Part shown: one piece after another, positions 12,834-42,843 of the stretch | Position numbering within the stretch: the stretch's first letter is position 1 | Layout of the letters: every line of letters starts with the position of its first letter | DNA from: Candidatus Latescibacterota bacterium | Lineage (GTDB): Bacteria; Latescibacterota; UBA2968; SICM01 | Assembly: GCA_965217865.1 (NCBI GenBank) | Contig: CBDCJO010000002.1 | Location: 5,408,001 to 5,472,000 of the forward strand | Length of the DNA stretch: 64,000 nucleotides | Direction of reading: 5' to 3' | The notes under the pieces: generated by a model | The model's input: only the letters and a program-made list of their open reading frames with translations | The model's database searches: none | What the model was told of the DNA's origin: nothing | Made by a program: the position numbers and the translations under genes

Positions 12834-13409
12834 CTAATTATTCGATTGGATAACGATCTCAAGGTCAAAGTCAGCAAGGTGCACGATCTGAAAGCAAAGT
12901 TTTTGAAGATCAAGCGATGTTTTCTCAACCGAGCGATACCCATAGATCCCCTCCACCCGGCTCCACGTCGGAGTAGGTGACAGACCGAAGAGGATACGAT
13001 GGTCTCCCCGGGTCCACTTTAGATAGCCGTCCTTCAGGTTGGGTTCTAATTTGGCGTTGGTCTTGAAATCCCCGGGACTTGAAAACTCCATTCGGGCGCG
13101 GATGGAAAACCCTTCGGTTAATCCCTTGTCATACGTCAGGTAGATTCGTCGAAACCAGAAGCCGTTTTGTTTCTCGAGACTTGGATCGTGGTTGGAAACG
13201 ATCGCGTAATAGTCTCCGAACATTTGCCCTGAGATCTTGCCTGAGGGTTCCTCCCCGGCGTATGAACTTGCTGGAACAAAGCAAGCGATAGCGGCCAACG
13301 CGGACACCAGGCATCTCGCTTCCGTACACACCCCTCTCGCATTCAGCTCCACGCGCTTAAGGACTTCCCTCATCTTCGGTTTTATTGAAAGGTTCACACG
13401 CGGGCTCAA
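12834..13409 (-). pseudogene. 3'-truncated outer-membrane porin fragment
   Basis: Signal-like segment then ISGQMFGDYY, GFWFRRIYLTYD, LKDGYLKW, YGYRSVEKT beta-strand pattern; ends far short of a full barrel. Confidence 0.55.
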
Positions 13410-13634: not shown

Positions 13635-14051
13635 TTGAACACCCCAAGAGGTGTGCTGTTTCTTTGTAAGGGTAACTCCTGCAGGAGCCAGATGGCCGAA
13701 GGGCTGCTTCGGGAATTCGGAGGAGATTGCTTTAGAGCCTTCAGTGCGGGGACCGATCCAAAACCCGTCCATCCCAAGGCTGTCAGAGCAATGAAGGAGA
13801 TCGGGATCGATATTTCCGCACAAGGAACGAAATCGATCGATCGATTTCTAAACGATCGCTTCGACGTCGTTATAACGGTTTGCGATCGGGCTAACGAGAG
13901 TTGCCCCGTCTTCCCGGGTGACGTGAAGCGGATTCACTGGAGTTTCGATGATCCAGCCGAAGCTACTGGGACCGAGGAAGAGAAGATGGGGGTCTTCCGG
14001 CGGGTGAGAAATGAAATCACGGAAAGGATCAACGTTTACCTGAGCGAATAA
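13635..14051 (+). CDS. arsC: Thioredoxin-type arsenate reductase (LMW-PTP fold)
   Basis: VLFLCKGNSCRSQMAEG, VITVCD.A.ESCPVFPG, HWSFDDPA. Confidence 0.9.
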   Translation: MNTPRGVLFLCKGNSCRSQMAEGLLREFGGDCFRAFSAGTDPKPVHPKAVRAMKEIGIDISAQGTKSIDRFLNDRFDVVITVCDRANESCPVFPGDVKRIHWSFDDPAEATGTEEEKMGVFRRVRNEITERINVYLSE

Positions 14052-14620: not shown

Positions 14621-15547
14621 ATGGCGGAAACGGAAGGATATTCATCTCGGCAGAAGGTGGCCATTCTGATGATCGCGCTCGGACAGGACACCAGTGCAGA
14701 GATCCTGAAATACCTGAACGATTATGAGATCGAGGACATCGCCCAGACCATCGCCGAGCTCAGGACCGTCACGACGGACCAGGAGGACGAGGTCCTCGAG
14801 GAGTTCGAGACGATGCTGATGGCCGGAAAGTACGTCTCGATGGGCGGGATCGATTTCGCCCGGGGGACGCTCGAGAAGGCCATGGGCCCCCGCCGGGCGC
14901 AGTCGATGCTCGACCGGGTGACGGCCACGACCTCGGGAGGGTTCTACCTGCTCCGAAACATCGCGCCGAACCAGATCGCCCCGTTCATCAGCAAGGAGCA
15001 CCCGCAGACGATCGCCCTGATCCTGTCCCAGCTGGACCCGTCTCAGGCCGCGGGCGTCCTGAACATCCTTCCGGAAGAGCTCCAGTCGGAGGTGACCTAC
15101 CGGGTGGCCGCTATGGAGAACATCTCACCGCAGGTGCTTCGGGAGATCGAGGATACGCTTGCCAATGAGCTCCAGGCGATCCTGACGGGTCAAATCACGG
15201 AGATCGGGGGTCCGAAGAAGGTGGAGGAGATCCGGAACATGATGTTCACGTTCGACGACATCGCGAACCTGACGGACCGCGAGATCCAGATGGTGCTGCG
15301 GGAGGTGGACACGAAGGATCTGGCGACTGCGCTGAAGGGATCTGCGCCCGAGATGCAGGATCGGATCTTTTCGAATGTGTCCGAGCGTGTGAGCCAGATG
15401 ATCCGCGAGGAGATGGAGTTTTCGGGGCCGATCCGGATGAGCGACGTCGAGGAGGTCCAGCTTCGGGTCGTCCAGACGGTGCGGCAGCTCGAGGAGGCCG
15501 GGCAGGTCACGGTCACCCGCGGAGAGTCCACGGACGTCTTCGTATAG
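14621..15547 (+). CDS. fliG: Orphan flagellar motor switch protein FliG with in-frame internal deletion
   Basis: QKVAILMIALG, EHPQTIALIL, MFTFDDI, LREVD..DL..ALKG; the segment normally between GG.KKV and EEIR is absent. Confidence 0.88.
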   Translation: MAETEGYSSRQKVAILMIALGQDTSAEILKYLNDYEIEDIAQTIAELRTVTTDQEDEVLEEFETMLMAGKYVSMGGIDFARGTLEKAMGPRRAQSMLDRVTATTSGGFYLLRNIAPNQIAPFISKEHPQTIALILSQLDPSQAAGVLNILPEELQSEVTYRVAAMENISPQVLREIEDTLANELQAILTGQITEIGGPKKVEEIRNMMFTFDDIANLTDREIQMVLREVDTKDLATALKGSAPEMQDRIFSNVSERVSQMIREEMEFSGPIRMSDVEEVQLRVVQTVRQLEEAGQVTVTRGESTDVFV

Positions 15548-15660: not shown

Positions 15661-15695
15661 AAAACCCCGGCGAAATAATTCGTCGGGGCTTTTTT
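15661..15695. terminator. Bidirectional intrinsic terminator
   Basis: AAAA-CCCCGGCGAA-ATAA-TTCGTCGGGG-CTTTTTT between convergent units. Confidence 0.8.
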
Positions 15696-15790: not shown

Positions 15791-15924
15791 TATAAAAAAA
15801 TTTCGTTAATCAGGGGCAGTGACAGATGCAATGGTGGGAGAAAGGTAAACAAAGATATCTTTCTCTGCTACTGCTACTGCTACTTGATTCCCCCCTTTTT
15901 CCGTCTCTCCTCTGCGTTTCCCGT

Positions 15925-17292
15925 TTAATTGTCCTCCGCTCCTGCTGCGATCCAGCGCCGGATCGTCTCAATGTCCTCATCGGGCAGGACTCCGCCTAGG
16001 GGCATCCGAGAACCGATCCCGGGCGCTCCTTCAAGTTTTTGAATGATCAGACTGTTTTCAGGTTCCCCGGGGTTGACCCGGTTCACCGCGGGTTTTATTT
16101 GACTCGGAACGTCGACCAGGTTGCCGTAAGACAATCCGGAGTCGAGTGCCATACCTCCCTGGGGATTGGGCGAGGCGTGGCAACCGACGAAGGCACAGTT
16201 CACATCGAAGATCGGCTGTATATCCAGACTGAAAAAGATCGGAGGGATATACCGGAAGGTGGTCCGGTCGCCCTCTCCGGCCATGAGGACCCCGCCTTTG
16301 AGACTCTGTACCCCGCTCACGATCACGATATAGGTGGTATCAGGAACCTGAGGCGTCGTGGTCAATCGGACAACATCCGGAGCATCGATAGAGACGTCCA
16401 GAACAATTAATCCCGAAATGTCATAAAGTTCGATCTTTGACGCCGAGGAAGGCTCCAGTGGCTCGCTGAACAGGAGATCGATCGTGATGTTGTCTATCGA
16501 TGTGGCTTTGACCACCTGAAGTATCGTTGGCACAAATCGAAACCCTGCAGGTCCCTCTTCTCTTCTAGAGTTATATATGGAGAGTGCATAGTCCACGCCG
16601 GGTTGTTGGGGGGATGTGGTTAACAGGACGGTTTCCAGCCCGCTTATTGATGCGGACAGGACCTCCAGGCCCCCGGTCACCGAGTAACGACGCGCAAGCT
16701 CGGGGACCGTACCGGCAACCAGATCCCTGAACGTCACCTCAACGGTCTGAACGTCCAGGGAGATCGCCACGTGCATTGGAGGCATAGGCGGAATGTTGGT
16801 TTTCCGCGCGCCAGTAGCGATCCACTCCCGGAAAAGGGAGATCTCCTGATCACTGAGAGGCGCCCCGTCCACAACAAGCCCCTCCCGAAGCGACGCGGGC
16901 ATCCTTCGGCCGAAGCGTTTCTCCGAAGCGGGCGGTTTCGTCTCGATCTTCCAGATCAACAGGCTGTCATCGGGCTTGCCGGGCAGGACCAGCGGCCCGT
17001 TCTTGCTGCCGTCCAGGCCGAACATGGATTCATATGCACGATCCACGGTCAGGATCAACCCCGTCTCCCTTACACCGATCTGGGGACCCAGGGAAAGATC
17101 TACCTCGTGACATCCCGGGCCGCAGGATTGATTGAAAATCCGCTGGACATCCAGGTCGAAAAAGGCGGTCAGGGTACTCTCCCCCAGTTCAAACGGAACG
17201 CGCTCGAACGATACCGGGTTGTTCAGGGAGGCGCACGTCAAAAAGAGTGTCCCGCAGGTCACGATGATTAATTTGCACTTTTCGTTCTGCAA
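15925..17292 (-). CDS. Putative lipoprotein with two atypical c-type heme domains and Ig-like repeats
   Basis: LFLTC lipobox-like; CGPGCH and CAFVGCH motifs each followed by PG.P..SL...K and RMP (planctomycete cytochrome c-like); two beta-rich repeats between. Confidence 0.75.
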   Translation of the reverse strand: MQNEKCKLIIVTCGTLFLTCASLNNPVSFERVPFELGESTLTAFFDLDVQRIFNQSCGPGCHEVDLSLGPQIGVRETGLILTVDRAYESMFGLDGSKNGPLVLPGKPDDSLLIWKIETKPPASEKRFGRRMPASLREGLVVDGAPLSDQEISLFREWIATGARKTNIPPMPPMHVAISLDVQTVEVTFRDLVAGTVPELARRYSVTGGLEVLSASISGLETVLLTTSPQQPGVDYALSIYNSRREEGPAGFRFVPTILQVVKATSIDNITIDLLFSEPLEPSSASKIELYDISGLIVLDVSIDAPDVVRLTTTPQVPDTTYIVIVSGVQSLKGGVLMAGEGDRTTFRYIPPIFFSLDIQPIFDVNCAFVGCHASPNPQGGMALDSGLSYGNLVDVPSQIKPAVNRVNPGEPENSLIIQKLEGAPGIGSRMPLGGVLPDEDIETIRRWIAAGAEDN

Positions 17293-17314
17293 TCTGCAAT
17301 TTCCTTTTTATCTC

Positions 17315-18498
17315 TTATTTCGCCCCGTGACAATAACCGCAAAACCTCAACCCGGCCTGCCGGTAATCCACGTGGCAAAGATAGCAGACCGCCCCGGGAT
17401 CGTTGTGAAAATCCCAGTCGTCGTCCCTCCCTGCATAACGGTCGTGTGTCCTCGGATCGGTGTTAGGAACACCGTCGAAGTCCACGTGGCACTGAAGGCA
17501 TGAGGGGTCCGATCCCTCGGCATCGTGGCAGGGCATACAGCGTTCATATCCCGCCTTGCCCACTCGGCATGACGCCCCCCGTTCCCCACCCTGCCCAAGG
17601 TCCACGGACCACCGACATCACCGTGCCAGACCGGCTTGAGTCGCCGGTCATCCGCCCCCATCGCCCGGTGGCAGTCTGCGCAGAAGGCCTGGTTGTCATG
17701 ACAGGTCGCGCACTGCCGTTCTTTCCCGACCGCATCGAGGGGATGGGTGAAACGGTAGTTGAGCTCGTGCTGGCGCTGGATGACCTGCGTTACCCGGCCG
17801 CGATCCTGATGTTCCCGTGGTGCGGCTCGATCCATGGGTGATTCCAGGAGGGCCAGTCGGGCTCCCATATGACATTCCTCGCAGTAATTCTCCTCGTGGC
17901 ATTTTGCGCAGGGCATGGACTCTGACCGGGCATGCTCTTTGTGTTCGAGAATAAAATCGTCACGATGGGTATCCGGCCGGATAACCTCCACCTTTGGGTG
18001 ACAGTTTTCGCAATCGAAAGGGGCTTCCAGATTGTTGTGACATGCAAGGCAGTCTTCCATCCCGGGCCAGTTTACCCTTGAGGCATAGTCGGTTTGATCC
18101 ATCCCGATATGGCAATCCACGCAGGTCATCCCCAACTTTTCAAGGTGGAACCGGTGCGGAAAGTCGATGACCCGCTCCGGGTTCTTGAAGTCCACGAGAC
18201 GCGCCATGTCTTTATGGCACTTTTCGCAGTCGGACCTATCCTTCACATCGTGACAATCCGCACAAGCCGCCTTGCTCGGAAGTATCCGGTCCGCTGCCCG
18301 GTCGCTCTTCGGAGCCTCGGTGTGACAGTCTGTGCAGACCGCCCCGATCACGTCGATGTGGTAATTGTGGGAAAAATGGATCAGCTGGCTGCGGTCCTCC
18401 TCCGGGATGGTGATGGGTGGCACCTCCCGAGAGGAAGGCAATCCCACAAAACCCAGGAAAGACAGCGTTGAAAGGAAGGCTAAAAGTCTGGTTCTCAT
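17315..18498 (-). CDS. Multiheme cytochrome c (14 CxxCH), interrupted by a 1-nt frameshift near 17545
   Basis: 10 CxxCH in ORF 17347-18498 plus 4 in ORF 17315-17605; one added base joins ..WARRDM to ERCMPCH; signal peptide MRTRLLAFL. Confidence 0.88.
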
Positions 18499-19852
18499 TG
18501 GGGTCCACCAAGTCGAGTCCTTCCTGAGTGGAAGAACCACGTACTTGCCCGGAAGAAGAAGCGACGGTCGTGCTGAAATCCGGTGAAAGGGTTCAGTCTT
18601 GTCGGTGTCTTGAGATTCTGAGCCATGTCCTGGCCTTCAAGGCTGATCGAGAGGTATTTAACGGGACGGTAGTGAAGACCGAGCGTGGAGCTGAACGCGG
18701 TACTCCGGTCCCCGATCCCATCTTCATAAAGGAAGGACGAGAAATGAACCCCTGCATTGACCCACAAAAAACCGTTCATTCGTTTCCGGATATCAGCCCC
18801 GAATCCGTCCGAAATCCCGCCATACCCTCTCCTCCCGCTGTAGGTCATGTAACCGTTAAGGACACCAACCCCCCCACTTATCCGGTGCCCGCTCCGCCCG
18901 TCGAAGGAAAGGTTCGTGAAACCGCCGAAAAGGCTAAAAAATCGGTTGAATCGATAGTCGCCCCGCCATGAAATCTCGTGATTCGCACGCTGGGTGAAGA
19001 TGCTGAAGATGCTGTAAGCAGGGGTCCATGGGGTCCGATATAAGTAGTTCCCGGAGAGGGTCAAACCTTCGACGTCGTAACGGAGAGTCACCTCACCTCG
19101 ACGGACTTCGACGCCCGCGGAAGTGCTCAGGTCTAAACGCCCGTAGAGGGATCCCGAAGAAAAGGTATGCCGCAAGTCCATCCCCAGCATCTGCTGCTCC
19201 AGAGAATTGGGACGGACCTGGAAAGTCCCGTTTTGGATCGTTCGGTCCAACCACAAAGAATCGGGATAGATTTCCCCTGCTTTGCTGAAGTACGGCTTCA
19301 CCCGTTTCGTTCGACGGTAGAAGCTGAAGCCAGCTGTCAATCTGGGAATTTTCGACGAGAGCAGATGGAATCCCATCATGTGGCCTTCATCCCAGCTGTT
19401 GATCAACCCGGAACGCCCCAAGGGGGCCAGTGTTCCGGCGTAAAGATCCAGCTTGGCGAAGTCTCGAAATCTGACGGAAACCCTTCCTCCATCGAGGGTA
19501 CCGATTCCCACCCCGGCCGACACGAACTGACGGCCACCGGTCAGGGTGAGGGATTCCCCTGCCCAGCGGAAGAGGGCGTGTCGTAAGCGGTTGGATGGGT
19601 CGTTTCCAGCCGATCGAGGATATTCAGGGAGGTTCTAAGGGAGGTTTGAAAGGAGAGTCGAGGGGAGCCGAGGCCCCGCAGGGTCAGTGAACCGCTCTGG
19701 TAGAGCCGAAACTGGCCCGAGTCCAGGGAGTCCGGGACCTCCCGCTCGAAGGTGTGGGCGGCCGTGCTGAAGCGGCCGGATAGGCTAACGGCTTCTGCAC
19801 GAAAAATAATTGTAACGAATAGTGCCGGAAGAAGATAGGAGAAGGTTCTCAT
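18495..19852 (-). CDS. Outer-membrane beta-barrel protein (porin of a porin-cytochrome pair), frameshifted near 19604
   Basis: Signal peptide; one added A in CTGGAAACGAC joins ILDRLE to NDPSNRLRHALFRW..GGRQFVSAGVG; alternating beta-strand pattern; stop overlaps cytochrome ATG. Confidence 0.75.
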
Positions 19853-19883
19853 CTAATCTACGAGGATCATGAGATGCCTGCCT

Positions 19884-20240
19884 CTATACATTAGCATCCA
19901 TACGACGAAGCCTTTCGGTCAACATGCGCATCATCTGAAGGGAGAATTGGGGAAACTGTTGTATTAAGTATAGAAATCGGTTCTCATCCACCGGCGCCAA
20001 CCTGCAAGGGATCGACGCAACCGCAGTGGCACTCCGGGGTTTCGAGTCGATCAGTGCCATCTCGCCGAAGATTTCCCCTTGTTTGGCCATGTAGATGGAT
20101 TGATCTCCTACTCGTATATCCACCTCTCCTTCCAGTATGACATACATGATCTTGCCTGGCTCCCCCTCTTGGAATATCATCTCCCCGGCCGGAGACTTTA
20201 ATACGTTCACATCGTGCTTGAATAGACTTATTAGATTCAC
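19884..20240 (-). CDS. Standalone cyclic-nucleotide-binding domain protein
   Basis: IFQEGEPG..MYVILEGEV, GEIFGEMALID..PRSATA; no HTH; AAGGAGG SD. Confidence 0.92.
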   Translation of the reverse strand: MNLISLFKHDVNVLKSPAGEMIFQEGEPGKIMYVILEGEVDIRVGDQSIYMAKQGEIFGEMALIDSKPRSATAVASIPCRLAPVDENRFLYLIQQFPQFSLQMMRMLTERLRRMDANV

Positions 20241-20350
20241 TTTTTAGACCCCCTCCTTATTTGCGAACTGGCAATTATCTCTGAACGGCCCTAGGGGAGA
20301 TCGGCCGCTATCCGGATAGTTCCAGGACGCGTATTTCCTAAGTTAACGTT

Positions 20351-20379
20351 ATAATAAGCACATATCCACCATTCGTCAA
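20351..20379 (-). promoter_or_regulatory. Candidate sigma70 promoter for the cNMP-porin-cytochrome operon
   Basis: Minus strand TTGACG-17 bp-TATTAT. Confidence 0.55.
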
Positions 20380-20562: not shown

Positions 20563-21219
20563 ATGAGAAAAGGCGCGTGGTTGTTCGCGTTCGGAGCCAT
20601 GACCCTGGTCATCGTTGCTCCAGGGATCTCCGCACAGGCCCGAATGGAAGCGGTTGGAGAGATCGGCGGGGGGATCTTTCTTCCCACGGGATCCGATGGC
20701 GATATCGCCAAACCGAGCCCTGCGCTTCAGTTTGTTGCGGGGATTGGATTATTCCCCCATTTTGGTGTAGAGGCTGAAGTCATCTACGTCCCCATTCTCT
20801 TGAAGGATCAAGCCTTCCCTTTGGACGACAACAGCCGCAGCAGTCAGGTATCGGTGGTTGCGGGCATTCGAGCGACCACAGGAAGACTTGTCGAAGGGGC
20901 TCCCGGAGTCGGTTACCTGTCGCTTCGGGCGGGATTTGCTCGGATCCAGACGCATACGGTATCTTCGATTCCATCCGGCTCCTGGATCGGAAGAACGGTA
21001 GACGCTATCGATAATCCTCCCCTCCAATCTCCTTTCAGAGGGTCCGAAAAACAAACCGGATTCGTCCTATCCCCCAAAGCGGGCGTCATAGTGCGCCTCT
21101 ACCACCGTACAGCAATCGATCTTGCCTTTCAGCCGATTTTCATCATCGACCGGGGAAAGACAACGACGCAACTCTTCCTGACCCTCAGTTTTGCCATGTC
21201 CGCCTGGGAAACCTTTTAA
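20563..21219 (+). CDS. Small outer-membrane beta-barrel protein
   Basis: Signal peptide ending ISAQA, amphipathic strands, C-terminal Phe. Confidence 0.65.
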   Translation: MRKGAWLFAFGAMTLVIVAPGISAQARMEAVGEIGGGIFLPTGSDGDIAKPSPALQFVAGIGLFPHFGVEAEVIYVPILLKDQAFPLDDNSRSSQVSVVAGIRATTGRLVEGAPGVGYLSLRAGFARIQTHTVSSIPSGSWIGRTVDAIDNPPLQSPFRGSEKQTGFVLSPKAGVIVRLYHRTAIDLAFQPIFIIDRGKTTTQLFLTLSFAMSAWETF

Positions 21220-21220
21220 G

Positions 21221-22162
21221 GTGGGGCTGAAGGACTGGACCGCCACCCTTCCTCGTCTCCTCGCGTGTCCACGTTGTTTTAACACCCTCTCTGAAGGTGA
21301 TTCCCCCGACTCCCTGAGTTGTCAAGTCGATGGCCTCACCTTTACCCGGCCCGGGGATATCTGGGACCTGATCGATCCGGAGCGCCGGGGTGCCCTGGAA
21401 CCCTTTATCTCCCACTATCAGACGGTCCGCCGGTTAGAAGGCTGGGGAAGCGATGACCCGGGGTATTATCGGGACCTTCCGTTTGGGGACAGGACAGGCC
21501 GCTTTTCCGAGATTTGGCGCATCAAGGCCAGGAGTTTCCGGTACTTAAAAGGTTTGCTGGGATCCCTCCAGCGTCCGGATGGTGAACCCCCTCGCATCCT
21601 TGACATTGGCGCTGGAAACGGATGGCTTTCTTATCGCCTGACGGAGATGGGATTTGACGTCTGCGCGATAGATCTCTCCGGAGATAGGACCGACGGTCTC
21701 GGTGCTGCAATCCATTATCCCCTCTCTTTTCCTCGCATCATAGCCGAATTTGAACGGTGGCCATTCATCGAAAAGGCCTTCGACGCGGCGGTCTCCGCCG
21801 CGAGCTTTCATTACGCGAGTGACGGTGAAGGGGCCATCGCCGCTGTTGCCCGGTCCATCTGCCCTGAAGGCCGCATCTACATTGTCGACACCCCCATCTA
21901 CCGATCTGCCGAGAGCGGTCGGAAGATGGTCGACGAGATGCGGGAAAACATGGTGGAAAAGTATGGTCTTGAATCCTGGGTACAACCCGGTCCCGGGTAC
22001 CTTACCTTCGAACGGATCCGGGAGTGGTCCTCAAAACTCGGCTATAAGGTCCGGCTCCACCGGCCTGCGTACGGCATTCGACTGCGGCTTCGACCGATCT
22101 TTGCCCGTATCCTGGGCCGACGGGAGCCGGCCAAGTTCGGGATTATTGAGTTGATCAAGTAG
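21221..22162 (+). CDS. Class I SAM-dependent methyltransferase with Trm112-like N-terminal Cys motif
   Basis: LLACPRC..LSC; ILDIGAGNGWLSYRL SAM motif; GTG right after previous stop. Confidence 0.88.
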   Translation: MGLKDWTATLPRLLACPRCFNTLSEGDSPDSLSCQVDGLTFTRPGDIWDLIDPERRGALEPFISHYQTVRRLEGWGSDDPGYYRDLPFGDRTGRFSEIWRIKARSFRYLKGLLGSLQRPDGEPPRILDIGAGNGWLSYRLTEMGFDVCAIDLSGDRTDGLGAAIHYPLSFPRIIAEFERWPFIEKAFDAAVSAASFHYASDGEGAIAAVARSICPEGRIYIVDTPIYRSAESGRKMVDEMRENMVEKYGLESWVQPGPGYLTFERIREWSSKLGYKVRLHRPAYGIRLRLRPIFARILGRREPAKFGIIELIK

Positions 22163-22187
22163 AAGTTCATGTTGGGAAAATCCAGCC

Positions 22188-23663
22188 ATGCCTGATAAAA
22201 AGGTCGTTCTCTTCTTCCCCTCCTACGCGAGTCAGGAGGCCTCCCCACCCCTTGCTCTAATCTCCATCGCAGGCCCCCTCGTCCAGGAGGGTTATCGTAT
22301 TGAGATCATCGATTCTGCCGTGGAACCGGACTATATTGGAAAGGTCCTAGCCCACCTAAAAGGCGCAATTTGCCTCGGGATCTCCCTGATCACCGGCCCG
22401 ATGATCAGGGATACGATCGAAGTAGGGAAGGCTGTAAAAGAGCGATATCCGAATCTCCCGATCATACTGGGAGGCTGGCACCCGTCCATCCTCCCGGAAC
22501 AAACGCTGAAAGCCCCTTTCGTAGACGCCGTCGTTCTCCGTCAGGGGGAGGTCATCTTCAAGGAACTGGTCAACAGGCTGGGGAACGGAGAGAGCCTTGA
22601 TGGGTTGAGCGGAGTACTCTACAAACAAAACGGAGAGATCGTCCACGGACCTCCACGGCCATATACCGGCGTCGCTCATCTTCCGGACCGGATGCCGGGC
22701 TACGACCTGATCGACTATGACCGATATGAAAAGATTACCCGGCTGCGTTGGGTCATGTACAGCACCAGCCACGGCTGCCCTTTCAACTGTTCCTATTGCT
22801 CAAATGCTTCGGTCTACGGCCGAAACCTGGATGTTTTGCCGGCCGAACAGGTCATCGATCAGGTCACGTACCTCGTTAGGAAGTTCGGCATCAACCTTCT
22901 GGGGATCATCGATGACATCTACTTCGCGTTTATGGATCGTTCCCTGCAGATCGCGGAGGGGTTCATCCGCTCCGGCCTGAAATTCCAGTGGTACATTCAG
23001 GACCGAGCAGACTCCTGGTCCCGGCTGACACCGGACCAGGCCAGGATCTACGCCCGATCCGGACTTTCTCGCGTCCACTTCGGGGCGGAATCCGGATCGG
23101 ACAGGGTCCTACACGGGATTGAGAAGAAGTCCGATGTGGCTCGCACCCTGGAGGCCGTGGACCGGTGCAAGGAAGCGGGAATCAGGGCCAGTTTCGGATT
23201 TATATTCGGCCTTCCCGATGAACAGGAAGAGGATCTGCGGATGACCGTGGATCTGATCCGGGAAATCCATAATCGTTACGATCGGACGGACTGTTATGCG
23301 AATATTTTTACCCCCTACCCGGGGTCCCCACTCTGGCCCCGGTCGATCGAACTCGGCCTGGATCCACCCAAAGCCCTCGAGGACTGGATCGATTTTTATC
23401 CCCGATTGACCGTCCTTCCATGGTTAAACGGCGCAGGACACAGACGTCTCCAGGCGGTTCGGCAATACCTTCGCTTCGGTTACCCCAATATCCGTGTGGG
23501 GGAGCAAATTCCCTCTTTGTGCCACCGCATGACCGTATCTCTGTTCGGTCCCTCCGCCCGTTGGCGGATCCGGCGCCATCGCTACGAAATTCCCTTGGAG
23601 ATCAGAGGCTATCAGGCCCTTCAGCGCCTGAAGTCCGGGTTCGGTGTCTATGACCGTTTTTGA
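22188..23663 (+). CDS. Cobalamin-binding radical SAM protein (1 of 4)
   Basis: N-terminal B12-binding domain (PPLAL, GGWHPS), CPFNCSYC, GAESGS, PYPGSPL. Confidence 0.95.
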   Translation: MPDKKVVLFFPSYASQEASPPLALISIAGPLVQEGYRIEIIDSAVEPDYIGKVLAHLKGAICLGISLITGPMIRDTIEVGKAVKERYPNLPIILGGWHPSILPEQTLKAPFVDAVVLRQGEVIFKELVNRLGNGESLDGLSGVLYKQNGEIVHGPPRPYTGVAHLPDRMPGYDLIDYDRYEKITRLRWVMYSTSHGCPFNCSYCSNASVYGRNLDVLPAEQVIDQVTYLVRKFGINLLGIIDDIYFAFMDRSLQIAEGFIRSGLKFQWYIQDRADSWSRLTPDQARIYARSGLSRVHFGAESGSDRVLHGIEKKSDVARTLEAVDRCKEAGIRASFGFIFGLPDEQEEDLRMTVDLIREIHNRYDRTDCYANIFTPYPGSPLWPRSIELGLDPPKALEDWIDFYPRLTVLPWLNGAGHRRLQAVRQYLRFGYPNIRVGEQIPSLCHRMTVSLFGPSARWRIRRHRYEIPLEIRGYQALQRLKSGFGVYDRF

Positions 23664-28200: not shown

Positions 28201-28239
28201 GGTTCCCGATTTAGGAACCGCTGATAATATCCGATCAAA

Positions 28240-29727
28240 ATGGATCTCCTCCTCTACAACCCGCGAAGCGCGTCCTCCAAGCACCGCGTCCCGATGTCCC
28301 TTCTGGCACTTGGTTCGGCCCTCGAGGGACAATGCGATTATAGAATCCTGGACGGAAATTTCCTCTCAGACGCCGTCACACAGATTGCGAAGTTAATTTC
28401 AAGGGATAGACCCAGGATTCTGGGAATCACCGTTATGCCCGGACCTCAGCTTCAGGAGGCAATTCCCTTAACCCGGGAATTGCGCAGATCTTTCCCGGAC
28501 CTGAGAATCGTCTGGGGAGGATATTTCCCCTCAAATCACCCCGATGTCGTACTCCGGTCCGGGTGGGTTGACTTCATCGTACGAGGTCCGTCGGAAGTCT
28601 CATTCAAAGAACTCGTAAACGCACTTCTGGCCGAAGGAGATTATCGGGCCATTCCCGGGCTTTCCTACACGGACGGTGACCGACCGGTCCACAATCCTTC
28701 ACGAAAACCGTTGACCCACCCGGACACGGTGCCTCCCTGGCCCTACCATCGGCTCGGGAATATTGAGAAATACCTCGGGCGCTCTTTCCTGGGTGAACGG
28801 ACGAGCTCCATGCACACCAGCTACGGCTGTCCCTTCAAATGCAGTTTCTGCGCTGTGGTTCCTATCTATGAGGGGGGATGGATCGGACGGAGCGCCGGGC
28901 TTGTGGCAGATGATGTCGAATACGTCTCCCGATCATTTGGCGTTGACGCAATCCAATTCTGCGACAATAATTTCTTTACTTCTCATAAAAGGGTATATGA
29001 ATTTTCCCAGGAGGTCCTGAATCGCGGTCTTCGAGTATCCTGGTGGGGGGAGGGACGGCCCGATACCCTCTTGAATTACCCTGACGAGGTCCTTTCGACC
29101 ATGCGGCGCGCCGGATGCCGGATGATCTTTCTCGGTGCGGAGTCAGGTTCCCCGGTAAGACTTCGCCAGATGAACAAAGGCGGAACACAGACTGGGGAAA
29201 CGGTCATAAAACTGGCGGATCGGTTTCGTCGCCACGGGATTATTCCCGAATTTTCCTTTGTACTCGGAGGGCCGGCTTCCGATGTGGACGCTGAGATCGA
29301 AAGTGAGTTTCAGTTTATCCGGGAAGTCAAACGCTGTAATCCAGATTCCGAGATCATACTCTACCTCTATGCGCCTGTACCGACGATGGGCTCCGATCTG
29401 TTCCATTCCGCTGCTCAGGAGGGTTTCTTTTTTCCCGATCGTCTCGAAGACTGGCTGCAACCTGAATGGCGGGATCTCGACCTTCGAAGGAGTCCGCAGA
29501 CCCCATGGCTTAAACCTCGCCACGTCGAAAAAATAGCCCGTTTCGAATCCGTCCTCAACGCAGCCTACCCAACGGTTTCGGATGTCCGCCTCAAGCCCTC
29601 GCAACGCCGATTTCTGAAGTCCCTGGGTTCCTGGCGATATGCGACAGAGACCTACCGCCACCCCTACGAGATCCGACTGTTTCACCGCATCTTCCGCTAT
29701 CGCCAACCGGAACGAGAGGGGTTCTAA
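28240..29727 (+). CDS. Cobalamin-binding radical SAM protein (2 of 4)
   Basis: PMSLLALG, WGGYFPS, CPFKCSFC, LGAESGS. Confidence 0.95.
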   Translation: MDLLLYNPRSASSKHRVPMSLLALGSALEGQCDYRILDGNFLSDAVTQIAKLISRDRPRILGITVMPGPQLQEAIPLTRELRRSFPDLRIVWGGYFPSNHPDVVLRSGWVDFIVRGPSEVSFKELVNALLAEGDYRAIPGLSYTDGDRPVHNPSRKPLTHPDTVPPWPYHRLGNIEKYLGRSFLGERTSSMHTSYGCPFKCSFCAVVPIYEGGWIGRSAGLVADDVEYVSRSFGVDAIQFCDNNFFTSHKRVYEFSQEVLNRGLRVSWWGEGRPDTLLNYPDEVLSTMRRAGCRMIFLGAESGSPVRLRQMNKGGTQTGETVIKLADRFRRHGIIPEFSFVLGGPASDVDAEIESEFQFIREVKRCNPDSEIILYLYAPVPTMGSDLFHSAAQEGFFFPDRLEDWLQPEWRDLDLRRSPQTPWLKPRHVEKIARFESVLNAAYPTVSDVRLKPSQRRFLKSLGSWRYATETYRHPYEIRLFHRIFRYRQPEREGF

Positions 29728-31341: not shown

Positions 31342-32145
31342 ATGAAACAATATCCATCCCGACGTGCATTGATCACAGGAGGGGCCAGCGGTTTCGGACT
31401 GGGTACGGCCAAGGCCCTCCTGGCACAAGGTGCTCAGGTTGCCATCGCCGACATCGATTCCGAAAGGTTGGAAAAGGCCGCTCGGGGATTGGACGCTAAG
31501 AACCTGCTCACTCTGGATCTGGACGTGACCTCGAAGGCCTCTGTTGAGGCTGCCGTTGACGCGTGCCGCGCCTCATTTGGGGGTCTGGATACCCTGGTCA
31601 ATTCTGCGGGGGTAATCCATTTCGCCCCCCTGGAGCAGATAACGGAGAAGGATTGGGACCGCGTGATCGACGTCGATCTGAAGGGCGTCTTTTTGTGCAG
31701 CCAAGCGGTCGCTCCCCTCCTCCGAAAAAGCGGCCAACGGGGTCGAATCGTCAACATCGGGTCGGACGCTTCGAAGATCGGATGGCCGCAAATCGCCCCA
31801 TACTGCGCTGCGAAGTCTGCGGTTGTTGGCCTGACAAAATCTCTTGCCGGCGAGTTGGCCGCGGACGGGGTCACCGTAAACTGCGTCTGTCCTGTTGGGG
31901 TTTCGACGACCAAAATGGGAGGGGATGTTTTGAAATGGAAGATCGGAACGACAGGCGAGACACCGGAAAAGATCCTGGCTTCCACAGCAGAAGGGATTCC
32001 TCTCAAACGCAATCCCACAGAGGCGGACATCGTCAACGCGATCATGTTCTTCCTTTCAGATGAATCGGCCTTTCTGACCGGTGTCGCTCTCGATGTCGAC
32101 GGTGGTTTCCTCAGCACGGCGTCGAATCCCGGCACGGATGATTAG
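31342..32145 (+). CDS. SDR family oxidoreductase
   Basis: TGGASGFG, VNSAG, YCAAK, VDGG. Confidence 0.95.
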   Translation: MKQYPSRRALITGGASGFGLGTAKALLAQGAQVAIADIDSERLEKAARGLDAKNLLTLDLDVTSKASVEAAVDACRASFGGLDTLVNSAGVIHFAPLEQITEKDWDRVIDVDLKGVFLCSQAVAPLLRKSGQRGRIVNIGSDASKIGWPQIAPYCAAKSAVVGLTKSLAGELAADGVTVNCVCPVGVSTTKMGGDVLKWKIGTTGETPEKILASTAEGIPLKRNPTEADIVNAIMFFLSDESAFLTGVALDVDGGFLSTASNPGTDD

Positions 32146-32212
32146 TGTGCCCGAAGATCGTCCGCTTCGAGGGGTCGTCAACGGAAGAAAGTTTGCATGC
32201 GAGGTTCTCCAG

Positions 32213-33871
32213 ATGATACAGCCTGTCGAACTCAAAAGTATTAAGCCCGAGGAACTGCCCGGCGGCTACACGTCTACTACTGCCGAGGGCTGGCAGATGC
32301 TAAGCGCCTGCCGCGCGGGCGATCTGGGTGCCGTCCGCTCCCTGGTCGAGCGTTGCCATGGTCTGATCCGCTTCGAGCACAACTACACGCCGCCGATCCA
32401 CTTTGCCGTGCGGGAGGGACACGCTCCTCTGGTGCGCTATATACTGGATTGCGGGGCCGATCCGACCTACCGTACCTACCGTTTCAACGACTCATTGCTG
32501 CAGATGGCGCGCGAACGCGGATACAGTGAGATCGCCGCCATGATAGAGGAGGCTCTGGCCAGCCGCTTCCCGCTTTCGGAAGAAGCCAACGCTCTGCTCG
32601 AAGCCGCCGGTGCGGGCGATCTCGACCGATTGCGTCAACTTTTAGACACGGATGCTGAGCTGGCGAGCGCCAGCAACGAGACCGGTGATACTGCGCTGCA
32701 CCTGGCCTGCGCAGGCGGGCATTCTGGCGTCGCGGAATTATTGCTGGATCGCGGCGCGGACCCCGAGGCGGTCCGGAGCGATGGCTTTAAGCCAATACAC
32801 AGTGCCCTGTTCTGGAACCGACAGGGCTACCTGCGCCAGCACAAACCGCCGGTGGACACGTTGCGCGCCGGTCGGCTCGCCGGCCTGCTGTTGGAGCGCG
32901 GCGCAACCTACAATATTTTTCTCGCCGCCGTTTTTGGAGACCTGCCCGCAGTGAAGAAATGGTTGGCGGAAGACTCCGCATTGGCGAATTTTGAGGACAC
33001 GCACCACCGCAGGCCAATCTCCGCCGCCGCCTGGTGGGAGGATATAGACATGGTGCGCCTGTTGCTGGAGCACGGGGCCGATCCCAGCCTGCCCGAGAGC
33101 GAGAGTCCGCGCGGCCACGCCCTGTGGATCGCAGCCTTTCGCAAGAATGTCGAGATGGCCCGGTTGTTGTTGGAACACGGCGCTGACCCCTAGTCCAATG
33201 CCGAATCCGGGGGCCGTGCCTTGCAACACGCCCGCGCTAATCCCGAGTTGTACCAATTACTCATAGATCACGGCTCCGAGCCTCGCGAATCGCCCAGCGA
33301 CCGGCTCCACGACGCTATCCACGACGACGATCTCGAAGCGGCCGAGGCGATCCTCAAGGAGCATCCCGACCTGGCCCCCGACCCCGCGATGTTTTGGGGC
33401 GAAGGCATCCTGGCTCTTCCCGCCAGGGAGATTCAGTGGGGGATGATGGACCTGCTCTTCCGATATGGTGCGAAGGTGCCCGACGTAACTAAGTGGGGTA
33501 TCAGCTACTATTTCAGGCACCTTGACGTTGCCAAGTATATGATGGAGAAAGGCATGAATCCCAATCACATGAACTGGCACCACACCACGCTACTCCACGA
33601 CGCGGCCCATGGCGGCAGCAGCAGCGTCGAGAAGGCGCAATTGCTCCTTGAGTACGGCGCCGATATCGACGCCATCGACGAGGAGTATCGCTCTACGCCG
33701 TTGGGACTGGCAGCCCGTGTGGGACGCCTGGAGCTGGTAAAACTCCTACTAGAACGTGGGGCTAACCCGACTGCGGCCGGGGCGCCGTGGGCCACTCCTT
33801 TAGCTTGGGCAAAGAAGCGCGGGCACCAGGAGATCGTGGCTCTGCTCGAGCGGAGGGGTGGTGGCTCGTAG
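32213..33871 (+). pseudogene. Ankyrin-repeat protein with in-frame TAG at 33191-33193
   Basis: TPPIHFA, TALHLAC, TTLLHDAA, STPLGLAA, TPLAWA repeats; ORFs 32081-33193 and 33221-33871 share a frame. Confidence 0.8.
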
Positions 33872-39774: not shown

Positions 39775-41188
39775 TTATTTCGATTTTCCGACCCCTGATA
39801 CCCGGCTTCCGCTCGTGATCCTCATCCCCATTCGACCGATCCGCGCATTGACGAAACCCTTCGCTAAACGGAGATAGCTCTTCCGCTGACTCCGAAGCTG
39901 CTTGTGGACCGTGACCTCCCCCGTCATCCACCTGGCGGCAAACGAGTAGAACCGCTTGGAACGCCGCCCTGAAACCGTTAAATCTCTGTCCGTCCGTTCA
40001 CTCCAATCCTTCTTTGCGACAATTCGGTCTTCAACAGTTGTCGTAGTACTCCGTCCCCTTGATCGGATATGCCAAGGTCGTTAGATACATGTCCGGATCG
40101 GAACGTTTGAGATGATCCACGGTTTCTTCCAGGTCCTCCATCTCCTCTCCTTCATATCCGAGCATGATGAACATTCCGGTCTTGATGCCGTGCTGCTTCA
40201 AGAGAAGTGTCATCGATCTGACTTGCTCAACCGAGACCCGTCGGTCCATTGCATCGAGTACCGCTTGGGACCCGCTCTCGGACCCGATCCATAGCCTGCT
40301 ACAGCCCATCTTGGCGAGGGTCCCGACAACTTTTTCGTTGAGGCGGTCCGCCCGGGAGATACATCCGAAGGGAATTCTTAATCCTCTCTTTTTCAATTCA
40401 TCTGCGTAATCGAATAACCATCGGTAATGGATCGTGAATACATCGTCCGCATACCAGAGCATGTCCGGGCTGTATTCATTCAGGATTTGTTCAACCTCAT
40501 CGGCCACATTTTGAGGCGAACGTCGTCTGTGGGTCTCTCCGAACACCGAACGACTGCACCACGTACAGGTGTAGGGACATCCCCTTGCACAGATTAGCGA
40601 TACCGATCCGATCCCGTGCCGCTTCCTCCAGGCGCAAATATAAGCCTGGATGTCAACTGAGGAGCGGTCCGGAAAAGGTTGTTTGTCGAGGTCGTCCATC
40701 AAAGGTCGGGAAGGGGACATGACGATACGCCCTCCATCATCTTTGAAGGCAAGGCCTCGGATATTGTGCAGGCCAGCAACCCCATTTCCCCGGAGATGCA
40801 CCAGAAGTTCCTCAAGGGTCTCCTCCCCCTCCCCCACCACCACTGCGTCCGCGCCGTGGGTCAGATATTCTTCGGTGTAAAGGGGAGGATCCGGGCCTCC
40901 GACGACAACAAACACACCCAATTCCTGTGCGATCCTTGCAAGAGAAAGGGCGTTCATTTTTGTCATCATATTGCAAGACAGGCCCACCACGGGCGGCCTT
41001 TCTGTCCTCAGAATATTGATGAACTCCTGTCGGTCCCGGAACGTGCCGTCGAATACCCCGGCATCAAATCCCTTACTTTTAAGATATGAGGAGAGATAGA
41101 GAAGTCCTAAGGGCGGATAGGGCTTCATGATCCGCTGTTCTTTCGGATCCTCATTCAGGAAATAAGGGTGGACTAGAAGGATATCCAT
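39775..41188 (-). CDS. Cobalamin-binding radical SAM protein (3 of 4), frameshifted near 40038
   Basis: PYPPLGLLYL, CPYTCTWC, IGSESGSQ; removing one base in GACAACTGTT continues EYYD-TVEDRIVAKKDWSERTDRDL...RFYSFA to TAA at 39775. Confidence 0.9.
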
Positions 41189-41301
41189 GAAATCGAGTAC
41201 CAGGTGCCAGGCCTATGTAAAGGCTCTAACGAATTGAGGGGAGCATCGAAAACGTTTTCTGTTTCCCGATTGAGATGTATACCAGAAGGTTTTGTCAATC
41301 T

Positions 41302-42780
41302 TCAATCATCAATATCCTTTCTAACCCGTCCCGCTTTCCCCGTACGTAAAAGAACCAGGCGCGTCCACGAAAAAGGAAGGAGGATCGTGTTCAAAACCAT
41401 CCCGCCCATCCGGCGAAGGCCTCCGAGAAGCCCGGAGCCCCTTAATTTCATCCAGGACTTTCGTATCCGAAAGGAACGGTGGATGGTCCTGTGCAACTGG
41501 CGGTAAAATTCCGCCGAATACGGCCCTCTGTAAAGCATCGCGAGATCTCCCGTGTTGACCCAGTTCTGCTTTTTTCCCAGGTCCACCGCAACCCGCTCAT
41601 AAAACTTCGTGCCAGGCAGTGGATACGAAACCGAGATTCCGATGTCGTCCGGCTTGCACTCCCGCACCATCCGCATGGTTTCTCGGATCTCCTCCCATCC
41701 CTCCCCTGGATAGCCGAACTGGAGGAAGAAACAGACCTCGATACCCTCTGAACGAAGAAGCCGTGTGGCTTCGTGGATCTGCTCAACCCTGAGATCCTTG
41801 TCCATTCCGGCCAGGATCATTTGAGATCCCGATTCCGCTCCCATCCAGACGGTCCTGCATCCGCCCTCGCGCAGAGCAAGGGCCGTATCATCGTGTATAA
41901 GGTCTGCTCTCATCTGACATTTAAAAGGCAAAACCGCATCCTGCTCCCGGACCAGATCTGCGAATCTCCGGATCCAACCAGGCTTCAAACCAAAAATGTC
42001 GTCTCCAAACCATATGTGGTCAGGCCTGAATTTCCTTTTTAGCCAGCCCATTTCTTCGACCACATTCTCCGGACTTCGCACCGTATACCGCTGGCCGTAA
42101 ATCGGTTTTGCACACCAGTTGCAGGAATATGGACACCCACGGGTGGTGACCATGTTCATCGAGTGATATCCGTGGCGGCTACGCCAGAGGCTCCGATAGG
42201 ATGGAATGTCCACAAGGTCCCAGGCCGGGAATGGGAGCCTGTCAAGATTCCGAATTAGAGGTCGCGGAATCACCTGGAGATCGCTTCTTCCGGGGACAGG
42301 ATAGGCAAGCCCGGGTATTTCTTCAAGGGAGACTGAGGTCCGTCCGGTAAGCCGGTCCAGAAGTTCGATAAGGGTGGCCTCCCCTTCCCCAACAATAATG
42401 TGGTCCGCGCCGGCTTCACGATATGCTCGAAGGTGATCAGTCGCATCTGAGCCGAAGAAGATGACCTGACAACCCCTTTCACGGGCCATCCCGATCATCC
42501 TAAATGCGGCCTCTCTCATTCGTAGTAAGCACATCTTGGAGAAATAATTAAACTGATCGTCGTATATCACGGCAAAGCTGGGCCTTTCCCGATTCAGAGC
42601 TTCGTCCCATTCCGACTCCGAGGCCGCAAGCGTAGCGTCGAACAAAGAAACGGTGTAGCCCTTCTCCTTGAGCGAACCTGCAGCATAAAGTGTCCCAAGG
42701 GGCGGATATGGCTGTCCCATCTGAATCAACTTTGGATCAAACCGGGGGTAATAGGACTGTCCGAAAAGAATATCTGTCAT
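41302..42780 (-). CDS. Cobalamin-binding radical SAM protein (4 of 4)
   Basis: PYPPLGTLYA, CPYSCNWC, MGAESGSQ, YPLPGT. Confidence 0.95.
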   Translation of the reverse strand: MTDILFGQSYYPRFDPKLIQMGQPYPPLGTLYAAGSLKEKGYTVSLFDATLAASESEWDEALNRERPSFAVIYDDQFNYFSKMCLLRMREAAFRMIGMARERGCQVIFFGSDATDHLRAYREAGADHIIVGEGEATLIELLDRLTGRTSVSLEEIPGLAYPVPGRSDLQVIPRPLIRNLDRLPFPAWDLVDIPSYRSLWRSRHGYHSMNMVTTRGCPYSCNWCAKPIYGQRYTVRSPENVVEEMGWLKRKFRPDHIWFGDDIFGLKPGWIRRFADLVREQDAVLPFKCQMRADLIHDDTALALREGGCRTVWMGAESGSQMILAGMDKDLRVEQIHEATRLLRSEGIEVCFFLQFGYPGEGWEEIRETMRMVRECKPDDIGISVSYPLPGTKFYERVAVDLGKKQNWVNTGDLAMLYRGPYSAEFYRQLHRTIHRSFRIRKSWMKLRGSGLLGGLRRMGGMVLNTILLPFSWTRLVLLRTGKAGRVRKDIDD

Positions 42781-42813
42781 GTCGGATCTAAAAAGAGGAT
42801 TGTTGGAATGGCC

Positions 42814-42843
42814 TTGACACGGGGTCGGCGCAACGCCTATTTT
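42814..42843 (+). promoter_or_regulatory. Candidate sigma70 promoter
   Basis: TTGACA-18 bp-TATTTT upstream of the GT4 gene. Confidence 0.4.

What the first reader, a model, noticed from the sequence alone, without database searches (positions are those of the whole stretch)
15925..20379. Porin + 14-heme cytochrome + lipoprotein cytochrome operon: candidate extracellular electron conduit
Co-oriented genes: cNMP-binding protein, beta-barrel (452 aa when repaired), 14-heme cytochrome (394 aa when repaired, ATGA-coupled to the barrel) and a lipoprotein with two heme-like domains. The layout parallels MtrAB(C)/Pcc porin-cytochrome conduits but with a different heme count and partner. Frameshifts would hide it from automatic annotation.
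Basis: partly seen in the sequence, partly recalled or inferred. Interest (0 to 1): 0.7.

Follow-up and report, generated by a model that had tools for sequence, protein, structure and literature searches.

The report
Decaying porin-cytochrome electron wire operon
Three neighbouring genes for a predicted outer-membrane pore, a protein with 14 heme-binding motifs and a likely two-heme lipoprotein match a known design that likely carries electrons across the cell surface, with an unusual outer partner; the pore and 14-heme genes each lack one base in this strain, so the wire is likely dead here.

Summary
The operon is real. It is a porin-cytochrome (Pcc) conduit of the Ignavibacterium type, not MtrAB. 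An intact sister-strain porin is predicted to be a 22-strand barrel with no plug. The cytochrome has 14 CxxCH motifs and 12 further conserved His. The porin gene lies beside it in 77 of 80 related loci. Shi 2014 already lists a 400-aa, 14-heme Pcc cytochrome, so the heme count is not new. The outer partner is the novelty: a lipoprotein with two likely His/Met heme domains (atypical CX3CH and CX4CH motifs) on Ig spacers. It was found in one clade, mostly Latescibacterota, next to the 14-heme gene in 12 of 12 genomes with strong or partial hits. The cNMP gene is not a conserved member. Main correction: the two frameshifts are likely real. Contigs from three samples in two studies carry the porin lesion, at least two of them the cytochrome lesion, and related strains carry other lesions (31-nt skip, +1, 2.5-kb deletion). 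The conduit is therefore likely being lost repeatedly in this species group, although Ccm maturation and ACIII-like/oxidase genes remain. Binding and direction of electron flow are untested.

The parts
19884..20240 (-). Stand-alone cNMP-binding domain protein (118 aa), 31 nt upstream of the porin; likely co-transcribed here but not a conserved member of the module
   Evidence: Pfam PF00027, E 2e-19; junction; absent directly upstream in 10 of 10 related loci with this lipoprotein and in L005 and L007
18495..19852 (-). Pcc-type outer-membrane beta-barrel gene (452 aa in sister strains; predicted 22 strands, no plug), broken by a 1-base deletion near 19609-19610
   Evidence: lesion present in contigs of X1, X2 and X4, absent in X7, X8 and X12
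17315..18498 (-). 14-heme c-type cytochrome gene (394 aa in sister strains; N-terminal c7-like part), broken by a 1-base deletion near 17545 that puts heme motifs 11-14 out of frame
   Evidence: lesion present in X1 and X4 (X2: no inserted base reported), absent in X7 and X8
15925..17292 (-). Intact 455-aa lipoprotein: invariant Cys20, heme-like domain 1 (C57-x3-C61-H62, M131), two S-layer-type Ig domains, heme-like domain 2 (C366-x4-C371-H372, M430)
20351..20379 (-). Sigma-70-like consensus match upstream of the operon; not above chance
   Evidence: 10 of 12 matches; 2 found against 2.9 expected
15665..15688 (+). Terminator-like hairpin between the convergent fliG-like gene and the operon; use by the minus-strand operon is inferred
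   Evidence: 3 found against 5.5 expected, so not above chance; T-rich flank on both strands

Best explanation
This is a three-gene porin-cytochrome operon, likely of the Ignavibacterium Pcc type, whose barrel and 14-heme genes each lack one base in this strain, so it likely no longer builds a working electron conduit. In intact relatives the steps are as follows. The barrel is predicted to fold as 22 strands with no plug (modelled on a sister-strain protein). The Ccm system likely attaches 14 hemes, about 12 of them bis-His (inferred from conserved His). The C-terminal eight-heme part would fill the barrel lumen, while the N-terminal c7-like six-heme part would reach into the periplasm and exchange electrons with the quinone pool, perhaps through the ACIII-like complex (inferred by analogy with Geobacter Pcc and MtrAB). 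The lipid-anchored partner would carry two likely His/Met hemes, one near the membrane and one at the end of an Ig stalk, in place of the multiheme outer cytochrome of relatives. The default direction is outward, to an extracellular acceptor (inferred only). In this species group the barrel and cytochrome genes are likely being lost repeatedly by different mutations.
For: Fold: pLDDT 92.5, pTM 0.85, 22 barrel strands from residue 23 on. Linkage: porin present in 77 of 80 cytochrome loci and adjacent in 72; the other 3 loci begin at the cytochrome. Hemes: 14 invariant motifs plus 12 His conserved in at least 97% of 121 homologues; c7/ActA-like N-terminus. Known type: IALB_1838 is 400 aa with 14 hemes, beside porin IALB_1839 and an outer cytochrome with atypical motifs (PMC4245776); homologues in 109 of 121 genomes of an Ignavibacteria family. 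Partner: heme Cys, His and Met invariant in all 15-17 rows covering them; one clade with SH-aLRT 100; next to the 14-heme gene in 12 of 12 genomes. Real lesions: gap-free contigs in X1, X2 and X4; other lesions in X2, X7 and X12; 4 of 10 porin/cytochrome copies truncated against 0 of 25 other genes in five assemblies. Maturation and respiratory genes.
Against: Homology to IALB_1838/1839 was not tested by direct alignment. The barrel is narrower than MtrB (about 40 against 48 angstroms, backbone estimate with assumed shear), and no atom-level fit was made. No solved homologue or curated family exists for the porin. The genome has only 5 other ORFs with 3 or more CxxCH and no second copy, unlike classical metal reducers. 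The heme-like domains model poorly around the motifs (pLDDT under 50 at 58-85 and 369-382), and the domain is common outside this operon (113 of 168 genomes). The sequencing chemistry of the runs is not on record, and X1 may be the source of the assembly. The lipoprotein stays intact in 5 of 5 assemblies, which is unexpected if it served only the conduit.
Confidence: 0.7

Rival explanations
1. The same conduit, but rewired to take electrons in. The His/Met domains (resembling FoxE and the hydrazine synthase alpha C-terminus) would act as high-potential surface hemes that oxidise Fe(II) or reduced organic matter and feed ACIII and the oxygen reductases of an aerobic lineage. This does not change the finding that this strain's copy is broken.
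For: The lipoprotein profile hits hydrazine synthase alpha (E 6.9e-8) and FoxE (E 2e-4). FoxE is a His/Met diheme Fe(II) oxidase (PMC10654088 passages). The genome has two COX1 genes and an ACIII-like cluster. None of the 10 loci with this partner carries another multiheme gene, unlike most Ignavibacteria/KSB1 loci.
Against: The FoxE hit is weak, and the heme ligand order differs in FoxE. High-potential outer hemes also suit export to high-potential acceptors. Relatives with this Pcc type include an Fe(III) reducer (Melioribacter, PMC6137239 passages). No redox data exist.
Confidence: 0.15
2. The operon is intact in the cell and the two frameshifts are sequencing or assembly errors.
For: The assembly has two long contigs, and both breaks are single missing bases. 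Close strains at 97-99% protein identity are intact.
Against: The porin gap recurs without any other difference in contigs of three samples from two studies, and the cytochrome gap in at least two samples. Neither site is a long homopolymer. Other runs show the base. Different lesions hit the same two genes in other strains.
Confidence: 0.06
3. The barrel is not a wire sheath but an export or anchoring channel for a surface cytochrome, or the module serves metalloid/oxidant detoxification at the envelope rather than respiration.
For: The best structural neighbours are generic large barrels: the usher FimD (Z 18.9, rmsd 4.8 over 331 residues) and TonB-dependent receptors. The module is patchy in the phylum (24 of 168 genomes) and dispensable.
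Against: Strict pairing with a periplasmic 14-heme protein across several phyla, and the tested role of Geobacter Pcc complexes (PMC4245776 abstract; PMC13591261 passage).
Confidence: 0.07
4. The breaks are programmed frameshift or phase-variable sites that still allow some full-length protein.
For: Both downstream frames remain open to their natural stops.
Against: There is no slippery run or repeat tract at either site, the sites are not conserved, and other strains carry irreversible deletions.
Confidence: 0.02

Closest known systems
Ignavibacterium album Pcc cluster IALB_1839 (porin) / IALB_1838 (400 aa, 14 hemes) / IALB_1837 (outer cytochrome with atypical motifs); Shi et al. 2014, PMC4245776
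   Same: Same order (porin, 14-heme periplasmic cytochrome of about 400 aa, lipoprotein cytochrome); 22 strands lies within the 18-22 given for Pcc porins; homologues at 37-43% identity in records titled Ignavibacteria.
   Different: The outer partner has only two atypical heme motifs plus Ig spacers, not 5 or more CxxCH; no further multiheme genes lie nearby; the barrel and cytochrome genes are broken in this strain. Direct alignment to the IALB proteins was not made.
Geobacter sulfurreducens Pcc, OmbB-OmaB-OmcB (tested Fe(III) reduction conduit)
   Same: Three-part architecture: porin, periplasmic multiheme cytochrome, outer lipoprotein cytochrome (PMC4245776; PMC13591261 passage).
   Different: 14 hemes against 8 in the periplasmic part; two likely His/Met hemes against 12 in the outer part; sequence homology to OmbB was not tested.
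Shewanella MtrAB(C) (PDB 6R2Q)
   Same: Likely works like it: a heme chain held in an unplugged barrel; generic fold match Z 16.0, rmsd 6.0 over 344 residues.
   Different: The barrel is 452 aa against 649; the cytochrome scores 17.6 bits against a cut-off of 192.2 for the DmsE/MtrA decaheme family; there is no MtrC-like partner.
FoxE (PDB 5MAB) and hydrazine synthase alpha C-terminal heme domain (PDB 5C2V); Pfam PSCyt1
   Same: Profile matches to the lipoprotein's heme-like domains (E 2e-4 and 6.9e-8); likely His/Met ligation as in FoxE.
   Different: Atypical CX3CH/CX4CH motifs, a lipid anchor, Ig spacers and fixed linkage to a porin-cytochrome pair; below the PSCyt1 cut-off (21.9 against 22 bits).

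Membership tests
Pcc (Shi 2014), Ignavibacterium type | Porin-like outer-membrane protein with 18-22 strands | tested here: met
   Model of sister protein P0007: 22 barrel strands counted from the DSSP list, pLDDT 92.5
Pcc (Shi 2014), Ignavibacterium type | Adjacent periplasmic multiheme cytochrome with 5-14 CxxCH motifs | tested here: met
   14 motifs, ATGA overlap; porin present in 77 of 80 loci; the signal peptide was judged by eye
Pcc (Shi 2014), Ignavibacterium type | Outer-membrane c-type cytochrome with 1-15 typical motifs (most clusters; atypical motifs occur) | tested here: inconclusive
   0 typical and 2 atypical motifs, with invariant Cys/His/Met and invariant Cys20; heme binding and surface location not shown
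Pcc (Shi 2014), Ignavibacterium type | Sequence homology to IALB_1838 / IALB_1839 | tested here: inconclusive
   No direct alignment; 109 of 121 genomes of the family of a record titled Ignavibacteriaceae carry the cytochrome; size and heme count agree with the paper
Pcc (Shi 2014), Ignavibacterium type | Intact porin and cytochrome reading frames in this genome | tested here: not met
   One base is missing in each gene; the porin gap recurs in three samples and the cytochrome gap in at least two
Pcc (Shi 2014), Ignavibacterium type | Cytochrome c maturation system in the genome | tested here: met
   PF01578 three hits, CcmE and CcmF_C above cut-off
Pcc (Shi 2014), Ignavibacterium type | Physical porin-cytochrome complex and electron transfer across the membrane | not testable with these tools
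MtrAB(C)/MtoAB/PioAB | Decaheme MtrA/DmsE-family cytochrome | tested here: not met
   14 hemes; TIGR03508 17.6 bits against cut-off 192.2; only weak hits in 14 of 121 homologues
MtrAB(C)/MtoAB/PioAB | Large MtrB/PioB-family barrel | tested here: not met
   452 aa against 649 for 6r2q_B; no such family among the NCBIfam or Pfam hits of 114 porin homologues; no MtrB hit with the porin profile
FoxE-type diheme iron oxidase | Two His/Met c-type hemes in the FoxE arrangement, with foxY/foxZ | tested here: inconclusive
   Weak profile match, E 2e-4, to one domain; motifs atypical; foxY/Z not searched

The most novel reading that the evidence does not exclude
One Latescibacterota clade replaced the multiheme outer cytochrome of an Ignavibacterium-type Pcc with a FoxE-like two-heme lipoprotein on an Ig stalk. 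This turned a metal-reducing wire into an electron-uptake conduit that feeds ACIII and oxygen reductases. The conduit is now being lost repeatedly in lineages that no longer meet its substrate.
Probability: 0.15. Interest if true: 0.7.

Novelty: new variant of a known kind. Interest (0 to 1): 0.38.

Why it matters
The 22-strand porin/14-heme pair is widespread (455 matching stretches in the species-genome collection). It has no curated family and no solved homologue, so it is an obvious structural target. The Latescibacterota form adds an outer partner not found in my literature searches, whose redox potential would bear on the direction of electron flow. The case also warns against repairing frameshifts by default: here they likely mark real, repeated gene loss, so this genome should not be counted as capable of extracellular electron transfer.

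Tried and rejected
No RNA holder was listed among the 21 runs, which says nothing about expression. Runs X13 and X15 did not cover either break site. Foldseek of the barrel gave only generic porins. Foldseek of the lipoprotein was filled by Ig matches and did not test the heme domains. A single-sequence search of the C-terminal heme-like domain gave only E 0.09 or worse. The N-terminal CxxCH domain of the L006 lipoprotein resembles the heme-like domain only weakly (hhalign probability 36%, E 4e-4; no HMM hit at 1e-2), so descent from that form is not shown. Protein identities to sister strains gave no clear sign of faster change in porin or cytochrome than in controls: porin 94-97%, cytochrome 94-99%, controls 93-99.5%. 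Promoter and terminator matches were not above chance. The cNMP gene as a core member was rejected; the cNMP genes 3-5 kb downstream in 5 of 10 loci are longer proteins with weak similarity (E about 1e-10 to 1e-12). MtrAB membership was rejected. Earlier-findings look-ups returned nothing. Paper search was uninformative.
Full report
Observation. The four genes are there on the minus strand: a 118-aa cNMP-binding protein (20240-19884; PF00027), a barrel gene (19852-18495), a cytochrome gene (18498-17315; ATGA overlap) and a 455-aa lipoprotein (17292-15925). The cytochrome has 10 CxxCH motifs in one frame and 4 in another, against 0.013 expected by chance in 394 aa. The barrel and cytochrome genes are each one base short and align to relatives with a single gap, near 19609 and near 17545. 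Intact sister proteins of 452 aa (P0007) and 394 aa (P0172) exist. The genome has 6.43 Mb in 2 contigs. Several of the closest named cytochrome homologues are titled Candidatus Latescibacterota (53-59% identity), and one member of the cluster of the same-family cytochrome is titled Candidatus Handelsmanbacteria. I therefore infer that lineage.

The barrel. A profile search found 363 representatives at E up to 0.001. I aligned 131 full-length proteins and folded P0007 with them: pLDDT 92.5, pTM 0.85. I count 22 barrel strands from residue 23 on, leaving out three short strands in the 184-217 loop. There is no N-terminal plug domain. Structural neighbours are generic large barrels: FimD Z 18.9, rmsd 4.8 over 331 residues; TonB-dependent receptors Z 17-18.5; MtrB Z 16.0, rmsd 6.0 over 344. 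No solved homologue was found by profile (3 chance-level hits). No curated family covered the 114 homologues scanned (best: PF13505 in 9 of 114). A formula estimate with assumed shear gives about 40 angstroms backbone diameter, against 48 for a 26-strand barrel (the 26 strands of MtrB are recalled).

The cytochrome. 578 homologues were found among the 7,997 candidates scored. In 121 aligned sequences all 14 motifs are invariant, and 12 further His are conserved in at least 97%, which suggests about 12 bis-His hemes. The N-terminal 165 residues match c7-type and ActA cytochromes (3ov0, E 2.6e-30). The scan of species genomes confirmed 455 of 500 candidate stretches and returned the best 80, from records titled KSB1, Calditrichota, Kryptoniota, Ignavibacteriota, Bacteroidota and Latescibacterota. 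A porin homologue is present in 77 of those 80 loci and adjacent in 72; the other 3 loci begin at the cytochrome. The cytochrome is in 109 of 121 sampled genomes of one Ignavibacteria family but in only 24 of 168 genomes of this genome's phylum.

What is known. Shi et al. 2014 (PMC4245776; I saw passages and sections 8 and 9; the six supplementary tables were listed but not read) define Pcc clusters by porins of 18-22 strands and periplasmic cytochromes of 5-14 hemes. They name IALB_1838 of Ignavibacterium album (400 aa, 14 motifs), with porin IALB_1839 and outer cytochrome IALB_1837, which has atypical motifs. I infer that this is the same family; I did not align to those proteins. Passages of other papers report Pcc in Ignavibacteria, Melioribacter and Caldithrix (PMC7399161, PMC6137239), Geobacter-like porin-cytochrome operons in Ca. 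Handelsmanbacteria (PMC7005843) and iron reductases in KSB1 genomes (PMC10732223). The core is therefore known. It works like MtrAB by analogy but fails MtrAB membership.

The partner is the variant. The lipoprotein has two copies of a small helical domain, each with an atypical motif and a distant MP. C57, C61, H62 and M131, C366, C371, H372 and M430, and the lipid-anchor candidate C20, are invariant in all 15-17 rows that cover them. The profile matches the hydrazine synthase alpha C-terminal heme domain (E 6.9e-8), S-layer SbsC Ig domains (E 1e-6) and weakly FoxE (E 2e-4). The Atlas lists PSCyt1/cytochrome c clusters at 0.90-0.91 for the C-terminal domain. The model is confident for the Ig domains and poor around the heme motifs (mean pLDDT 75). 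This partner follows the cytochrome in 10 of the 80 loci, of which L011 and L016 are copies in one genome. In 44 loci a multiheme gene follows, 17 have something else, and 9 have no room. The 10 loci carry no other multiheme gene. On a quick IQ-TREE tree of 80 cytochromes (2 loci with fewer than 13 motifs left out; the careful search did not finish), the 11 rows with this partner form one side of a branch with SH-aLRT 100. In the phylum, all 12 genomes with a strong or partial hit to the whole protein have it next to the 14-heme gene, although the single domain is common elsewhere (113 of 168 genomes). Searches listed no paper whose title or abstract start describes this partner; subscription journals are mostly not covered.

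The frameshifts are likely real. I laid 8 of the 21 listed runs. At the porin site, contigs of X1, X4 (two samples of one study) and X2 (another study) match the window with no gap and no other difference. X7, X8 and X12 carry the extra base; X13 and X15 do not cover the site. At the cytochrome site, X1 and X4 match the window, X2 reports cover without an insertion (its piece is not in the cut table), and X7 and X8 carry the base. X1 may be the source of the assembly, and the chemistry is not on record. Other strains have other lesions. A second strain in X2 skips 31 nt at 19591-19623. A second strain in X7 has +1 at 17767, which fits the truncated P0317. X12, otherwise 99.9% identical, has an 11-nt insertion at 19651 and jumps from about 18880 to about 16344, removing the whole cytochrome gene (depth 3.5). 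Database protein P0323 shows the same jump, and the X12 word share of 0.38 fits it. None of 25 copies of the lipoprotein and four neighbouring control genes is truncated. Fisher p is 0.004, descriptive only because kin are not independent. Left out of that count: nine short-contig members, four queries not in the collection and the singleton fliG; the pairing of one assembly's two contigs is inferred. In more distant relatives the lipoprotein or porin is also fragmented (L011, L013, L016, L093, L095, L097, L098), although some of these may be assembly errors.

Host machinery. Ccm genes are present (ccmA, ccmB and ccmH read by eye). So are an ACIII-like cluster (5-heme protein and NrfD; label from gene order and recall) and two COX1 genes. 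Only 5 other ORFs in the genome have 3 or more CxxCH, and there is no second copy of the module. The loss is therefore likely not covered by a paralogue.

Mechanism and verdict. Shown: gene order, motifs, conservation, linkage and the lesions in contigs. Predicted: the barrel fold. Inferred: heme attachment, cytochrome-in-barrel geometry, surface location of the lipoprotein, coupling to the quinone pool and direction of flow. Best reading (0.70): an Ignavibacterium-type Pcc conduit with a clade-specific two-heme outer partner, inactivated in this strain. Rivals: electron uptake in the intact form (0.15), non-wire function (0.07), sequencing error (0.06), programmed frameshift (0.02). New variant of a known kind; interest 0.38.

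Noticed in passing
window 14621-15547 (+); genome-wide G000:C2: A lone fliG-like gene (308 aa) with no flagellar operon around it. The genome has 13 FliG_C matches scattered over contig 2, some split or with an internal stop: an unexplained expansion of FliG-like genes.
   Followed up: partly
L005:1909-3524 (G001:C18): In a same-family genome two genes sit between the porin and the 14-heme gene; they look like a PhoU/DUF47 regulator and a Pit phosphate transporter. PhoB/PhoR-like genes follow the lipoprotein (labels read by eye).
   Followed up: no
L006:3892-13097 (G001:C70): A second, conventional copy in the same genome: 9-heme protein with a C-terminal sorting-like domain, radical SAM gene, porin, 14-heme cytochrome and a lipoprotein with 11 typical plus 2 atypical motifs. 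It is the nearest outgroup of the two-heme-partner clade (SH-aLRT 83).
   Followed up: partly
window 12837-13409 (-) and 13635-14051 (+): A truncated outer-membrane porin-like gene (signal peptide plus about 130 residues, no Pfam hit) next to an ArsC/LMW-phosphatase gene in a low-GC stretch (GC 0.47); likely another remnant.
   Followed up: no
G000:C2:4136469-4148914: A cluster that reads as a planctomycete-like bc complex with an 8-heme, 1004-aa subunit, followed by a second heme-copper oxidase.
   Followed up: no
window 32078-33868 (+): Two adjacent ankyrin-repeat ORFs in the same frame, separated by a single stop codon; either two genes or one broken gene.
   Followed up: no
window 21191-23663, 28228-29724, 40034-42843: Four radical SAM genes, three with a B12-binding domain, plus methyltransferases and glycosyltransferases in the window; the first pair is syntenic with the porin in G002 (L007).
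   Followed up: no
G000:C2:1214168-1215601 and 2279078-2280511: Two near-identical 478-codon transposase-like ORFs, one inside the heme biosynthesis cluster and one near ccmE (read by eye).
   Followed up: no
window 15864-15884: A CTGCTA-type short tandem repeat downstream of the operon that varies in copy number between strains (+6 nt in X2).
   Followed up: no
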